DNA of 64,000 bases, taken from Eledone cirrhosa (taxonomy: Eukaryota). Both the position numbers and the translations under genes were made by a program. The stretch is taken from positions 23,312,001 to 23,376,000 of the forward strand of contig OZ024745.1 in assembly GCA_964016885.1 (NCBI GenBank). The letters run 5' to 3'. Of the stretch, positions 28,698 through 60,829 are shown piece after piece. A model generated the notes under the pieces. The model did not search any database and was not told where the DNA came from. It worked only from the letters and a program-made list of their open reading frames with translations. Every line of letters begins with the position of its first letter. The stretch's first letter is position 1.

Positions 28698-30131
28698 GTG
28701 GTAGAACACTGGAAGGTAATATCCGTAGTGGTAGAGCACTCAGTCCATGGGACAAGTTAGGTAGAAGTGGTTACACAACAGTTAGTTCACATAGCGAGAA
28801 CAATTATTTCACCTCAGCGGATCCTCAAATCGTAATGGACATGGTTATACGGAACAGGAAGGACAACCGTACGAACGCGCATGCGCAGAAACGATCACTT
28901 CACACAGGCCATACTAAATTGCGCGCGAGAGGTGTAAGGGAGATAACTGCGAAAGTCCGAAAGTTTCTAGTTGATAAGAAAATTAGGATGTTGTAATTCA
29001 ATCCGGAACTTTGTAGTTATGTAAGAGGTGTTTCCAGACGTGTGGACAACGTGTGAAGAATTCATTTCTCGTGTTTAGGCAATCACTATTGCGTAATCCC
29101 TTTAGAATATTTATTCTTTCATCAATACATAGTCCACACGACGGATTGCCACTAGCTAACAGCGGCTTCTCGCAACCTATCACATACTCTCCCACTAACA
29201 ACAACAGCAATAAGAAAAGAAAGCGTTACAATAGACAAACTATCTGGTTCTCTCCTCCCTTCTCACTCAACGTTAAAACCGATGTACGCAAACAATTTCT
29301 AGCCCTCTTAGATAGACACTTTCCCATAGGTCATAAATACCGCTCCATTTTAACCGACACAATGTAAAACTAGGATACTCCTGCGCTAAGAACATGAAGG
29401 CCAACATCACCAACTGCCCTAAGATCAACACACCACCAGGGTGCTCTTGCCGTAAGCCCGAAGCTTGTCTCCTTCAACAGCAATGCAACACACACGCTGT
29501 AGTTTATGAAGCTGTGGTCACTTCCAACCGAACAAATCAACCACAGGAGGTCAAATCCTATGTGGGTATGGCGGAGTGCCGATTTAAGGAACGCTTCCTG
29601 AACTACCAGTTGACCTTTAGGTACCCGCGCAGACGTTCATCCACGAAACTCGTGAGCCTCGTATGGTCCCTCAAGGACTCAAGTATAGACTACGCCATTC
29701 AATGGAAAACCATCACTAAGTCCAAGCCATACGCAAGGGGCAATCCGTCGTGTGGACTATGTATTGATGAACGAATAAATATTCTAAAGAGATTACGCAA
29801 TAGTGATTGCCTAAACACGAGAAATGAATTCTTCACGTGTTGTCCACACGTCTGGAAACACCTCTTACATAACTACAAAGCTCCGGATTGAATTACAACA
29901 ACATCCTAATTTTCTTATCAACTAGAAACTTTCGGACTTTCGCAGTTATCTCCCTTACACCTCTCGCGCGCAATTTAGTATGGCCTGTGTGAAATGATCG
30001 TTTCTGCACATGCGCGTTCGTACGGTTGTCCTTCCTGTTCCGTATAACCATGTCCATTACGATTTGAGGATCCGCTGAGGTGAAACAATTGTTCTCGCTA
30101 TGGTGAACTAACTGTTGTGTAACCACTTCTA
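28698..30131. mobile_element. 5'-truncated Penelope-like element with inverted 3'-end copy, inserted in (TA)n
   Basis: 28698-29150 is the inverted copy of 29739-30131 plus about 65 terminal bp; GIY-YIG coding remnant between; (TA)n on both sides. Confidence 0.88.
29151..29891 (+). pseudogene. PLE polyprotein C-terminus (linker plus GIY-YIG endonuclease), frameshifted; Naiad/Chlamys-like
   Basis: IWFSPPFSLNVKT..FLALLDRHFP, then after a frameshift GYSC..CSCRKPEACLLQQQC..VVYEA..SYVG..FKERF..CGLC..LNTRNE..CPH. Confidence 0.85.
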
Positions 30132-30848
30132 TATATATATGTTAGACCTCTATTTTTTTAAATATATATATACATATATATATATATATATGTATATATA
30201 TACATGTATATATATATATATATATATATATATATATATATATATATATATATATATATATATATATATATATATATATATATATATATATATATATATA
30301 TATATGTATATATATAGATGTATATATATATATATATATATATATATATATATATATATATATATATATATATATATATATATATATATAAATGTATATA
30401 TATACATGTATATATATATATATATATATGTATATATATATAGATGTATATATATATATATATATATATATATATATATATATAAGTTGAAAAAAATGAA
30501 AACGAAATTTCATTATTTCTCACTCTTAGTATGGCACTTACTTAAATGTAAGTATGTATGTATACGTACATACATATATGTATACAGACGTACAGTAGCA
30601 TGCATATATATATATATATATATATATATATATATATATATATATATATATATATATATATATATATACATACATACATATACACATATGCATACAGGTA
30701 CACATACATATATGCACGCATCAGTTTAGCTGACGTTTATTATAACGCCTGCTTTGCTCGTTTGTTTGTCAACAAATCGAACAGCCTGAATTTATGCCAT
30801 ACGGTGTTAAGGCAACCAAGTCACCTTTTTGTTCAACACTGACACAGG

Positions 30849-30893
30849 AACGATGTACTAGTTTCAAGCTTGTTAGCTATCATCAGCACCGTT
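30849..30893 (-). ncRNA. Minimal type I hammerhead ribozyme
   Basis: Reverse complement of the 31256 motif. Confidence 0.85.
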
Positions 30894-31255
30894 TACCCAT
30901 CTGCCAGATAGTTGAACGTTCGAAAGTATATACTTTCCTTATGAAAATTAACGGCTGAGCAGCCTAATTTGCATATTGAGTGAGTTAAATCGGTCAGGCA
31001 TACCGAAAACGATAAGTTGAAAAAAATGAAAACGAAATTTCATTTCTCACTCTTAGTATGGCACTTACTTAAATGTAAGTATGTATGTATACGTACATAC
31101 ATATATGTATACAGACGTACAGTAGCATGCATATATATATATATATATATATACATATACATATACACATATGCATACAGGTACACATACATATATGCAC
31201 GCATCAGTTTAGCCGACGTTTATTATAACGCCTGCTTTATAATAAACGTCGGGTA

Positions 31256-31300
31256 AACGGTGCTGATGATAGCTAACAAGCTTGAAACTAGTACATCGTT
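31256..31300 (+). ncRNA. Minimal type I hammerhead ribozyme
   Basis: aacggtg CTGATGA t agc taacaa gct t GAAA ctag TA catcgtt: 7-bp stem I, palindromic stem III ACUAGU, GUA site. Confidence 0.87.
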
Positions 31301-31764
31301 CCTGTGTCAGCGTTGAACAAAAAGGTGACGTGGTTGCCTTAACACCGTATGGCATAAATTCAGGCTGTTCGATTTGTTGACAAACAAACGAACAAAGCAG
31401 GCGTTATAATAAACGTCGGCTAAACTGATGCGTGCATATATGTATGTGTACCTGTATGCATATGTGTATATGTATGTATATATATATATATATATATATA
31501 TATATATATATATATATATATATATATGCATGCTACTGTACGTCTGTATACATATATGTATGTACGTATACATACATACTTACATTTAAGTAAGTGCTAT
31601 ACTAAGAGTGAGAAATGAAATTTCGTTTTCATTTTTTTCAACTTATCGTTTTCGGTATGCCTGACCGATTTAACTCACTCAATACGCAAATTAGGCTGCT
31701 CAGCCGTTAATCTTCATAAGGAAAGTATATACTTTCGAACGTTCAACTATCTGGCAGATGGGTA

Positions 31765-31809
31765 AACGGTGCTGATGATAGCTAACAAGCTTGAAACTAG
31801 TACATCGTT
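31765..31809 (+). ncRNA. Minimal type I hammerhead ribozyme
   Basis: Identical to 31256-31300, 509 bp downstream. Confidence 0.87.
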
Positions 31810-57984: not shown

Positions 57985-58405
57985 GGGTGTGACTACGGGT
58001 TGTTGGGATGTGATGGTGTGCTCTATGAGTGTGACAACGAGTAAATGGAGTGTGACAGTGAGCTCCCTCAGTGTGACAACGAGTAAATGGAGTGTGACGG
58101 TGAGCTCCCTCAGTGTGACAACGAGTAAATGGAGTGTGACGGTGAGCTCCCTCAGTGTGACAACGAATAAGTGGAGTGTGACGGTGAGCTCTCTCAGTGT
58201 GACGGTCAGCTCCCTCAGTGTGACAACGAGTAAGTGGAGTGTGACGGTGAGCTCTCTCAGTGTGACGGTGAGCTCCCTCAGTGTGACAATGAGTAAGTGG
58301 AGTGTGACGGTGAGCTCTCTCAGTGTGACGGTGAGCTCCCTCAGTGTGACAACGAGTAAGTGGAGTGTGACGGTGAGCTCCCTCAGTGGGACAGTATAGG
58401 TGACG
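57985..58405. repeat. 21-bp minisatellite with two alternating unit types
   Basis: agtgtgacggtgagctccctc / agtgtgacaacgagtaagtgg. Confidence 0.9.
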
Positions 58406-59453
58406 GTAAATCAATTGATTGATGAGGATTTTATTTCCTGGTTGAAGCTCTCCCACCTTGCCTATGTCTATATTTACTCAGCACCACAACTACCAACATT
58501 AATTTAAACCAAGTCAAAAACAGAAGTGTTACTATAGGTTTGGCACATAGGATCAGTAGAAATAGGGTGAATATGTTGTAATTAATGTCTGTGATGTTAA
58601 TTTTGAGGGATCAATTCAAGTCTTCCTATAGGAAATTGTACAGTTATGACAGTAAGACATCCTGTCAACGAAAGGTGTCAACAACACGACGTTAAAATTA
58701 GTTTCAGTTGAGCCTATGGGCAATATTTTATATCAAATAACTGATTAAATTTCATATAGAAAGTCATTTAAACTTGATGTACAAGAATTTAGATGTTATT
58801 GCTAAGTTAAGGAGGGAAATTACTCCAAAGATATGCAATATATGTTTGCATAAATGAAATATATTCCCCACTTCAGTATAAGCTATCATCTTGCACAGAT
58901 ATCCATCCTTTATTTATCGTTAATTCTATAAAAATGCATGATTTTTCTAAGAACCTTGAATAATTATTTGATATTCAACTGGAATGTCTTAAACGTCAGT
59001 TTATAATTGTTAACATTTGTAAATAGACTGAAACCTATTCCTGACTGTTAGGCAACATAAAATAAAGAGCTCTGACAAGAAATATAAACAAGATGTATGT
59101 AATATATTAACTTATGATTAGTTAGTTGTTTAATGGCTTAGTCACATGAGACTTTATAACTATTTGTTTGTATGTACGGGAGGTCAACTTTGCTTTTTAT
59201 ACATTCATGGTCGATAAAAAATGTACTACTCTTATACTGGGGTCGATTCTTCATCTATACCCGTTTCTCATTTCCAGCCTCCTCCCTCAATCCATAATTA
59301 TATATATATATATATATATATATATATATATATATATATATATATATATATATATAGTGGTTGAACACTGGGAGGTAATATCCGTAGTGGTAGAGCACTC
59401 AGTCCATGGGACGAGTTAGGTAGAAGTGGTAACACAACAGTTAGTTCACCATA

Positions 59454-59493
59454 CCGAGAACAATTGTTTCACCTTCGCGGATCTTCAGCTCGG
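59454..59493 (-). ncRNA. Minimal type I hammerhead ribozyme of PLE pLTR
   Basis: Reverse complement of 60279-60318. Confidence 0.8.
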
Positions 59494-60278
59494 GATGTAT
59501 ATGGTTATAGGAACAGGAAGGACAACCGTACGAAAACGCATGCGCAGAAACTCGGTCACTTCACACAGGCAATAGTAGACTGCGTGCGGGGGGTGTAAGG
59601 AAGATAACTGTGAAACTCCGGAAAGTTTTTGGGTTGAAAATAAAAATAAATAAATTAAAAATTCAAAAAAAATTCAAAGAATCAGTCCGGAGCCTTGTAG
59701 TTATGTAATAGATGTTTGGTGTCGTGTGGACAACGTGTGAAAAATTCACTCTCGTGTTTAGGCAATCACTATTGCGTAATCTCTTTAGGATAGTTATTCG
59801 TTCGTCAATACATAAGCCACACGTCAGATTTCCCCTTGCGTATGGCTTGGACTTAGTGATGGCTTTCCATTGAATGGAGTACCCTATTCAATGGAAAGCC
59901 ATCACTAAGTCCAAGCCATACGCAAGGGGAAATCTGACGTGTGGCTTATGTATTGACGAACGAATAACTATCCTAAAGAGATAATGCAATAGTGATTGCC
60001 TAAACATGAGAAGTGAATTTTTCAAACGTTGTCCACACGTCACCAAACATCTATTACATAACTACAAGGCTCCGAACTGATTCTTTGTAATTTTATTTTT
60101 ATTTTTTAAATTTTTTTTAAAATTTTATTTTCAACCAAAAAACTTTCCGGACTTTCGCAGTTATCTCCCTTACACCCCCCCCCCACACGCAGTCTACTAT
60201 TGCCTGTGTGAAGTGACCGAGAGTCTGCGCATGCGCGTTCGTACGGTTGTCTTTCCTGTTCCTATAACCATATACATC

Positions 60279-60318
60279 CCGAGCTGAAGATCCGCGAAGG
60301 TGAAACAATTGTTCTCGG
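60279..60318 (+). ncRNA. Minimal type I hammerhead ribozyme of PLE pLTR
   Basis: ccgag CTGAAGA t cc gcgaa gg t GAAA caattg TT ctcgg. Confidence 0.8.
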
Positions 60319-60829
60319 TACTCGGTATGGTGAACTAACTGTTGTGTAACCACTTCTATCTAACTCGTCCCTTGGACTGAGTGCTCTACCACTACGGATA
60401 TTACCTTCCAGTGTTCCACCACTATATATATATATATATATATATATATATATATATATATATATATATATATATATATATATATATATATATATATATA
60501 TATATATATATATATACATATATATATATATATATATATACATATATACATATATATATATATATATATACATATATATATATATATATATATATATATA
60601 TATATATATATATATATATACATACACACACACACATATATATATATATATATATATATATATATATATATATATATATATATATATAAGAACCGTTCTA
60701 CGGTTCTTATATATTTGATATATATTTATCCTTATCGAGCCCTCTTTCGATTTTAGTCTTCAAATTTATTATTATTACTATATATATATATATATATATA
60801 TATATATATATATGTATATATATATATAT

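What the first reader, a model, noticed from the sequence alone, without database searches (positions are those of the whole stretch)
28698..60422. All five ribozyme-bearing fold-back modules share one polarity: 5' ends fused centrally, 3' ends facing outward
In 28698-30131, 30482-32072, 33190-33580, 36791-37916 and 59357-60422 the left hammerhead motif is always on - and the right on +, across four unrelated families, with (TA)n at or near the outer ends. Random rearrangement would give both polarities. Inference: a shared integration route, either two cDNAs primed from opposite strands of a palindromic (TA)n target and then joined, or fold-back synthesis. Inverted 5' pLTRs are known in PLEs, but the uniformity across non-coding families is notable. 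Read-through transcripts would form long dsRNA, a potential ADAR or small-RNA substrate.
Basis: partly seen in the sequence, partly recalled or inferred. Interest (0 to 1): 0.75.

Follow-up and report, generated by a model that had tools for sequence, protein, structure and literature searches.

The report
Head-to-head Penelope insertions, paired ends
The five mirror-image repeats are real and all point outward, as such pairs do across this genome; they are the known head-to-head insertions of Penelope-type jumping genes and their ribozyme-bearing passengers, and because most pair one short end with one long end they were likely copied from RNA twice, once from each side of the cut chromosome.

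Summary
Confirmed, and it holds genome-wide. In 120 evenly spaced 10-kb samples, same-family hammerhead copies on opposite strands within 500 bp were head-to-head (minus, then plus) in 29 of 29 pairs; a SINE control gave 5:6. The polarity is published for Penelope-like elements (PLEs; PMC3846280, PMC8557442). The families are not all non-coding: modules 1, 4 and 5 are 3' ends of coding Hydra-type PLEs. Modules 2 and 3 are retrozyme-like units. Each well-sampled family has two fixed 3' ends, and 63 of 79 modules pair one short with one long end, as do 9 of 9 family-B arrays and 13 of 14 pairs of a sixth family. The long end sits on the 5'-shorter arm in 11 of 23 resolved cases, which simple fold-back copying cannot give. 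Best reading (0.65): both strands of (TA)n are nicked and primed at the two RNA start sites, and the two cDNAs are end-joined. Expression, cleavage and editing are untested. The scan noted the same pairing before on other DNA of this genome.

The parts
28698..29156 (-). Module 1 left arm: family A (Hydra-type PLE) 3' end, 5'-truncated, LONG 3' terminus (tail 28698-28761) against (TA)n
29157..30131 (+). Module 1 right arm: family A, 5'-longer, SHORT 3' terminus; central junction carries about 4-5 nt that match neither arm
29337..29891 (+). Open frame of 184 aa: CxCx5C linker and GIY-YIG-type endonuclease end of the family A protein
30059..30104 (+). Minimal type I hammerhead position of module 1; core reads UUGAGGA here and in the left arm (about 28785-28830, -), while family copies read CUGAAGA
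30482..31238 (-). Module 2 left arm: family B tandem non-coding units (about 480-540 nt), hammerhead 30849-30886, LONG terminus, 5'-shorter arm
31251..32072 (+). Module 2 right arm: family B, hammerheads 31263-31300 and 31772-31809, SHORT terminus
32948..33145 (.). Extra module, family E: - arm 32948-33088 (long end), + arm 33091-33145 (short end); longer copies carry a hammerhead core variant (UUGAGAA or CUGAGAA)
33190..33426 (-). Module 3 left arm: family C (about 290-315 nt unit), hammerhead 33308-33348, 5'-longer; short terminus by eye (the script scored it unclear)
33422..33620 (+). Module 3 right arm: family C, starts at the hammerhead, degenerate core, LONG terminus; about 5 nt overlap with the left arm
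36258..36428 (.). Extra module, family E: - arm 36258-36361, + arm from 36365
36697..37650 (-). Module 4 left arm: family D (3' UTR of a second coding Hydra-type family), hammerhead 36836-36889, LONG terminus (tail about 36697-36790), 5'-longer
37647..37916 (+). Module 4 right arm: family D, hammerhead 37818-37871, SHORT terminus
59357..59884 (-). Module 5 left arm: family A, hammerhead core 59467-59488, LONG terminus
59885..60422 (+). Module 5 right arm: family A, hammerhead core 60284-60305, LONG terminus; near-perfect palindrome with about 4 nt at the centre
60830..61580 (.).
28600..28697 (.). (TA)n target; further tracts at 30162-30481, 32073-32228, 33621-33658, 36656-36696, 37917-37941, 59299-59356 and from 60423

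Best explanation
These modules are head-to-head, 5'-truncated insertions of Penelope-like retroelements and of non-coding hammerhead units that likely borrow the same enzyme, and each was likely made by two-ended target-primed reverse transcription. Shown: polarity, (TA)n flanks, two fixed 3' termini per family, short+long pairing, coding Hydra-type parents for families A and D. Inferred: the element's endonuclease nicks both strands of a (TA)n tract; each 3'-OH primes a cDNA, one at the short and one at the long start site, probably on the same RNA or on sister RNAs in one particle; both cDNAs usually stop early; their 3' ends are joined by microhomology or with a few added bases. Any cDNA primed from a flank leaves the RNA's 3' end at that flank, so priming from both flanks must give 3' ends outward and 5' ends fused. 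A minority (long+long or short+short near-perfect palindromes such as module 5) may come from fold-back. The ribozyme marks the strand but is probably not what sets the polarity.
For: Polarity 29:0 within 500 bp, SINE control 5:6. All 11 tail-to-tail pairs have (TA)n between them against 13 of 93 head-to-head pairs, so tail-to-tail pairs look like separate insertions. Bimodal 3' ends in 9 families. Short+long pairing in 63 of 79 classifiable modules (7 of 86 unclassifiable), p = 9e-8 against the 50% ceiling for independent choice; 21 of 27 in the random sample alone. Family B 9 of 9 arrays (read). Family E 13 of 14 adjacent pairs (read). The tail arm is 5'-shorter in 11, 5'-longer in 11 and equal in 1 of 23 resolved modules; a fold-back copy cannot hold a tail that its template lacks. 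Of 17 scored family-A junctions 10 have 1-35 extra bases and 7 have 2-10 nt overlap (exact-match null for 2 or more: 15%). Some family-E junctions are zero-spacer palindromes. Arms are nearly always one family: 2 cross-family head-to-head neighbours within 1.5 kb, both with (TA)n between. Arm-to-arm identity ranks in the family's top 10% in 35 of 65 modules, and 12 of 32 modules share private variants in both arms. In vitro a PLE protein cuts and extends both target strands, prefers AT-rich DNA, starts at two internal sites that bound the tail, is predicted to be a dimer and does not need ribozyme cleavage (PMC11167929).
Against: No intermediate, transcript or empty site was seen. 16 of 79 modules are long+long or short+short. 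Most insertions are one-armed (87 solo, 34 inverted, 12 tandem events in the random sample) and only 2 of 127 solo copies carry an inverted tail stub (control 1 of 87), so two-ended priming is not the rule for every insertion. Arm-to-arm identity beats the best other sampled copy in only 22 of 65 modules. The 5'-extent test resolved only 27 of 86 modules, mostly family A. Junction calls rest on alignments to diverged copies and may be off by a base or two. The in vitro data are from a Poseidon-clade element, not a Hydra one.
Confidence: 0.65

Rival explanations
1. Self-priming or fold-back: an antisense RNA (the model proposed in PMC3846280) or the first cDNA folds back and is copied into a hairpin; the endonuclease then trims one arm at the short site and inserts the hairpin into (TA)n.
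For: Gives the same polarity and near-identical arms. Many modules are near-perfect palindromes with short spacers. Explains long+long and short+short modules such as module 5. PMC8557442 ascribes the tail to endonuclease resolution of an intermediate.
Against: Without the extra trimming step it fails for the 11 of 23 modules with the tail on the 5'-shorter arm. 10 of 17 junctions have added bases in place of the base-pairing that priming needs. Zero-spacer junctions in family E leave no loop. No variant was shared only by mirror units in the family-B arrays aligned, though few variants exist. The tail bounds match RT start sites in vitro (PMC11167929).
Confidence: 0.22
2. Two successive insertions: a second copy of the same family homes to the 5' junction or pseudo-LTR of a fresh copy in the opposite orientation.
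For: The PLE protein cuts near its own ORF-pLTR junction in vitro. Families cluster in shared (TA)n tracts.
Against: A primed insertion would put its 3' end, not its 5' end, at the cut. No (TA)n lies between arms in 80 of 93 head-to-head pairs. It gives no reason for short+long pairing or for shared private variants.
Confidence: 0.05
3. Later rearrangement or selection: inverted duplications arise after insertion, or tail-to-tail pairs are removed.
For: Close inverted repeats are unstable and can be depleted (general knowledge); SINE1 neighbours are mostly in the same orientation at short range (56 of 67 within 500 bp).
Against: Depletion acts on both polarities: SINE1 gives 5:6 and 14:14. DNA-level duplication would not stop at the two fixed element termini.
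Confidence: 0.05
4. Assembly artefact (read fold-backs).
For: The window's own junction 29156/29157 was not among the joints shown in other samples.
Against: Arms differ by 2-17%, have different ends and different flanks. Raw Illumina reads of three other samples show recurrent opposite-strand joints in family A (polarity not given there).
Confidence: 0.03

Closest known systems
Complex insertions of endonuclease-bearing PLEs: inverted 5'-truncated copy (head-to-head pseudo-LTR) with a one-sided tail (PMC3846280, passages; PMC8557442, passages and section 15)
   Same: Head-to-head polarity, 5' truncation, tail on one arm, hammerhead near the 3' end, AT-rich target.
   Different: Tails here are about 35-100 nt (30-40 bp in the papers). 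The papers give no count of polarity or of short+long pairing in the passages seen, and PMC3846280 favours self-priming on an antisense template, which fits these counts less well.
Hydra clade of C-terminal EN+ PLEs (PMC8557442, passages of section 11)
   Same: Family A has DKT, a CxCx5C linker, no CCHH, CxxC and CxH around the conserved E and N, a hammerhead and (TA)n targets. Family D's upstream frame also has CxCx5C.
   Different: RWR in place of RWK in the one copy seen; no tree was built.
Anolis Poseidon PAc in vitro (PMC11167929, main text read)
   Same: Two internal RT start sites bounding the tail; both target strands cut and extended; AT-rich target; ribozyme dispensable.
   Different: Other clade; the part read proposes one new copy after second-strand synthesis and does not derive the inverted copy from the two sites.
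Animal non-LTR retrozymes (PMC7229834, passages; bioRxiv 10.64898/2026.07.22.740005, part 1 of 5)
   Same: Family B: tandem non-coding units of about 480-540 nt, each with a type I hammerhead; proposed to be non-autonomous PLE derivatives.
   Different: Here the arrays come as two head-to-head arms with short and long ends; 'inverted' does not occur in the main text of PMC7229834. Circular RNA is not shown here.
LINE-1 twin priming (recalled, no call)
   Same: Priming from both target strands gives the same outward polarity.
   Different: In twin priming the second primer anneals internally and the two pieces barely overlap; here both arms hold the same 3' region and start at two fixed sites.

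Membership tests
EN+ Penelope-like element (family A) | Single frame with RT followed by a GIY-YIG-type endonuclease | tested here: met
   585- and 591-aa frames in L131 and L132 end in the window's 184-aa frame; atlas hits score 0.95-0.98, several with RVT_1 and GIY-YIG. Pfam scans found no RT or GIY-YIG match.
EN+ Penelope-like element | Inverted 5'-truncated copy and one-sided tail | tested here: met
EN+ Penelope-like element | Minimal type I hammerhead in the 3' repeat | tested here: met
   Motif met in the families; mutated in module 1 and in one arm of module 3; single motifs fold no better than shuffles for A and C, z about -2 for B and D.
EN+ Penelope-like element | Target-site duplication | tested here: inconclusive
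   Both flanks are (TA)n, so none can be read.
Hydra clade (family A) | DKT in place of DKG | tested here: met
   DKT in 5 of 6 copies that showed the motif region, HKT in 1.
Hydra clade (family A) | CxCx5C linker; CCHH absent; CxxC and CxH beside E and N | tested here: met
   Read from the translations.
Hydra clade (family A) | N-terminal RWK motif | tested here: inconclusive
   RWR in the one copy that reached it.
Hydra clade | Insertion into (TA)n | tested here: met
   79 of 102 modules with (TA)n at both ends.
Hydra clade | Placement in the RT tree | not tested
Neptune clade (my first reading) | CX2-5CxxC linker and CCHH motif inside the endonuclease | tested here: not met
   No cysteines between the two core motifs; linker is CxCx5C.
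Non-LTR retrozyme (family B) | Tandem non-coding units each with a type I hammerhead | tested here: met
   Arrays of up to 11 units per arm.
Non-LTR retrozyme (families B, C) | Self-cleavage and circular RNA | not testable with these tools
   Needs RNA data or a bench assay.
Non-LTR retrozyme (family C) | Tandem units, no link to a coding frame | tested here: inconclusive
   One clear tandem (L049, period 292) and partial tandems; no PLE frame upstream in 0 of 45 copies, most with 1.5 kb of flank only.

The most novel reading that the evidence does not exclude
A dimeric Penelope-type protein holds one RNA at two fixed start sites and primes both strands of the cut target at once, one subunit per site, so that head-to-head insertion with one short and one long end is the direct product of the normal cycle, for coding elements and for circular or tandem ribozyme RNAs alike, guided by a shared tail hairpin (ACUC...GAGUGC-like) found in sequence-unrelated families.
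Probability: 0.45. Interest if true: 0.7.

Novelty: new member of a known kind. Interest (0 to 1): 0.42.

Why it matters
The architecture is known, but how PLEs make their inverted copies and tails is stated as open in PMC8557442. The counts here (29:0 polarity; short+long pairing in about 80%; tail on either arm) favour two-ended priming over the published self-priming model and give a sharp prediction for the existing in vitro system. They also tie non-coding retrozyme arrays to the same machinery by their ends. About one such hairpin per 35 kb (34 in 1.2 Mb, family E not counted) is a large potential source of double-stranded RNA, untested here.

Tried and rejected
Neptune as the clade: rejected on motifs. 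First polarity count was contaminated: one F9 seed ran into a neighbouring family-E copy; seeds were trimmed and the count redone. 5'-extent mapping ran through the palindromes of other copies, so 59 of 86 modules were dropped from the arm-length test. Family C's long/short call is confounded by tandem units; without C the pairing is 61 of 73. Inverted tail stubs at solo copies: 2 of 127, no better than control. Mirror-variant test in family-B arrays: too few variants to decide. ADAR lead: arm-specific changes in 32 modules were mostly G>A 32 and C>T 30 of 184, with T>C 21 against A>G 8; no per-module test for clusters was run. Sequencing runs: no RNA holder listed. Laying reads on the module-1 junction was uninformative. 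Pfam, PDB and Rfam gave nothing useful. PMC9977147 (passages) added only that non-autonomous Chlamys exist. A published two-ended priming model for PLEs was not found in seven searches; the library lacks most subscription papers, including older Penelope papers, and no supplements were read. The random sample covers 10 large contigs (C1-C8, C10, C11, C28 excluding C9 make 11); smaller chromosomes were not sampled. The organism is not established; 'octopus' was a guess from the microsatellite content.
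Full report
Observation. The window lies in a 3.0-Gb animal assembly (G000) rich in microsatellites. Self-comparison after masking simple repeats finds all five inverted modules, and reading the sequence confirms them. Hammerhead cores lie on - in left arms and on + in right arms. They are minimal type I motifs with a short palindromic stem III, the form described for PLEs (PMC4209133, passages, which also notes close pairs on opposite strands). 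Module 1 has a mutated core in both arms and module 3 in its right arm. Three further modules in the window share the polarity.

More than chance. Five of five gives only p = 0.06. I took 120 evenly spaced 10-kb stretches from 11 large contigs. A hammerhead descriptor found 111 motifs against 1, 5 and 1 in shuffles, in 13 multi-copy clusters. With trimmed seeds plus window seeds for families A and C there were 203 oriented copies in 63 of 120 stretches. Same-family neighbours on opposite strands were head-to-head in 29 of 29 pairs within 500 bp, 33 of 36 within 3 kb and 34 of 39 within 10 kb, in 14 families; a SINE family gave 5 of 11 and 14 of 28. Family E, counted apart and oriented by its variant hammerhead, adds 14 adjacent head-to-head pairs against 1 tail-to-tail (read). 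In loci picked by similarity searches the count was 67 against 7. Every tail-to-tail pair (11 of 11) has (TA)n between the copies, against 13 of 93 head-to-head pairs. Neighbours of different families are mostly tail-to-tail (14 against 2), as expected when outward-facing ends share a (TA)n tract.

What the families are. Module 1 holds a 184-aa frame with 57,367 first-look candidates in the genome (not a copy number). Longer copies give 585- and 591-aa frames with RT motifs, a CxCx5C linker and a GIY-YIG-type end; the atlas places them beside RVT_1 and GIY-YIG clusters, although Pfam scans gave no such match. Family D (module 4) runs upstream into a second frame of this type at 30-36% identity in L077, L081, L085, L141 and L142. 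Family B (module 2) is a tandem non-coding unit of about 480-540 nt with up to 11 units per arm. Family C (module 3) appears to be a unit of about 290-315 nt with no frame found upstream. So two of four families are ends of coding elements.

Two fixed ends, paired. Distances from the hammerhead to the first (TA)n are bimodal in nine families, for example about 48 and 114 nt in A, 62 and 157 in D, 50 and 123 in F2. Of 86 head-to-head modules of these families, 63 pair a long with a short end, 8 are long+long, 8 short+short and 7 unclear or at an edge. Independent choice could give at most 50%; p = 9e-8, and 21 of 27 in the random sample alone, p = 0.006. Solo copies are 105 short and 75 long. 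Family B ends at unit positions about 338 and 396, one on each arm in 9 of 9 two-armed arrays. Family E gives 13 of 14. In the window, modules 1-4 are short+long and module 5 is long+long. The tails of A, D, F4, F5 and F9 share an AGTRCY motif in 41 of 50, 29 of 31, 4 of 4, 6 of 6 and 10 of 12 long copies; C, F2, F6 and F11 lack it (0 of 23, 8, 16, 6); B and E show it by eye, often in the 3' side of a small predicted hairpin.

Mechanism. A cDNA primed from a genomic 3'-OH leaves the RNA's 3' end at that flank (established for target-primed reverse transcription). Priming from both flanks must give the observed polarity; so does fold-back. The two differ on the ends. A fold-back copy is a sub-segment of its template arm, so the tail cannot be on the 5'-shorter arm only. 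It is there in 11 of 23 resolved short+long modules, on the longer arm in 11, equal in 1 (27 of 86 modules could be resolved), and in window modules 1, 2 and 3. Of 17 scored family-A junctions (1 more had too few references), 7 overlap by 2-10 nt and 10 have 1-35 extra bases, which looks like end-joining of two ends. Arms come from one source or close sources: median arm-to-arm identity 0.94 against a family median of 0.86, top tenth in 35 of 65, though better than the best other copy in only 22 of 65; 28 private variants are shared by both arms in 12 of 32 modules against 184 arm-specific ones. In vitro a PLE protein cuts and extends both strands, starts at two sites that bound the tail and needs no ribozyme cleavage (PMC11167929, parts 1-2 of 4 read). 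I commit to two-ended priming at the two sites (0.65). Fold-back with later trimming of one arm stays open (0.22) and may account for symmetric modules such as module 5. Against generality: 87 of 133 events in the random sample are solo and 12 tandem, and solo copies rarely carry an inverted stub (2 of 127).

Artefact check. Arms differ in sequence and ends, and raw reads of three other samples show opposite-strand joints in family A, some with about 100 reads per sample from a single start. The window's own junctions were not confirmed by reads.

Comparison with what is known. PMC3846280 (passages) calls head-to-head the most frequent PLE arrangement, describes a tail on one of the inverted repeats and proposes self-priming on an antisense template. 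PMC8557442 (passages and section 15) calls the inverted 5'-truncated copy and one-sided tail typical, ties Hydra to (TA)n and leaves the mechanism open. bioRxiv 10.64898/2026.07.22.740005 (part 1 of 5) derives animal retrozymes from PLEs. The polarity is thus known; the counts and their use against self-priming were not found in seven searches of a library that lacks most subscription papers; no supplements were read. Earlier notes of this scan report the same short+long pairing and two-armed retrozymes in this genome; my count came before that look-up, and those notes are not independent support.

Verdict. Real, genome-wide, a known kind of insertion; worth attention only for the mechanistic test it sharpens. 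Interest 0.42.

Noticed in passing
window 32948-33145 and 36258-36428; L155, L158, L197, L206, L256: Family E: hammerhead with a variant core (UUGAGAA, the U3-A8 form, or CUGAGAA) and a long stem II. Many copies (29 of 59 alignments) begin at the same base inside stem II, just after TTTAG, which resembles a 3' splice site or a strong RT stop.
   Followed up: partly
window 28785-28830 and 30059-30104: Both arms of module 1 share a mutated hammerhead core, so a template with a probably dead ribozyme was still copied, or one arm converted the other.
   Followed up: partly
window 60830-61580: Head-to-head module of another non-coding family with a circularly permuted unit of about 535 nt; one more copy in L256.
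   Followed up: partly
window 47256-47408: Short palindrome with a one-sided tail between (TA)n tracts; an abundant family in the fetched loci; no hammerhead seen to orient it.
   Followed up: partly
window 41409-41554, 42900-43008, 47450-47848, 61587-61751: Solo copies of families D (two), B and F5.
   Followed up: partly
window 42012-42883: Element with 100-bp terminal inverted repeats (98%) and what looks like a broken mariner-type transposase on the - strand (label recalled, not scanned).
   Followed up: no
window 39151-39321 and 41121-41285; 17133-17185 and 18106-18158: Other inverted pairs without a hammerhead, probably ends of DNA transposons.
   Followed up: no
window 96-293, 1075-1264, 16447-16563, 19921-20105, 21010-21202, 32769-32933, 40761-40942, 62199-62391: Abundant SINE-like family, used as the orientation control; often in direct tandem pairs.
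   Followed up: partly
window 9831-14860, 22602-27052, 51346-57958: Long satellites (29-bp unit, 30-bp unit, and a roughly 20-bp unit); the latter two give open frames of 1,200-2,170 codons on both strands, probably from repeat content.
   Followed up: no
L134 and L135: Two loci 250 kb apart on C2 hold the same 10-kb content in opposite orientation, a recent inverted segmental duplication; counted once.
   Followed up: no
32 modules of families A, D, F2: Arm-specific T>C changes (21) outnumber A>G (8) on the sense strand; not checked for clustering in single modules.
   Followed up: no
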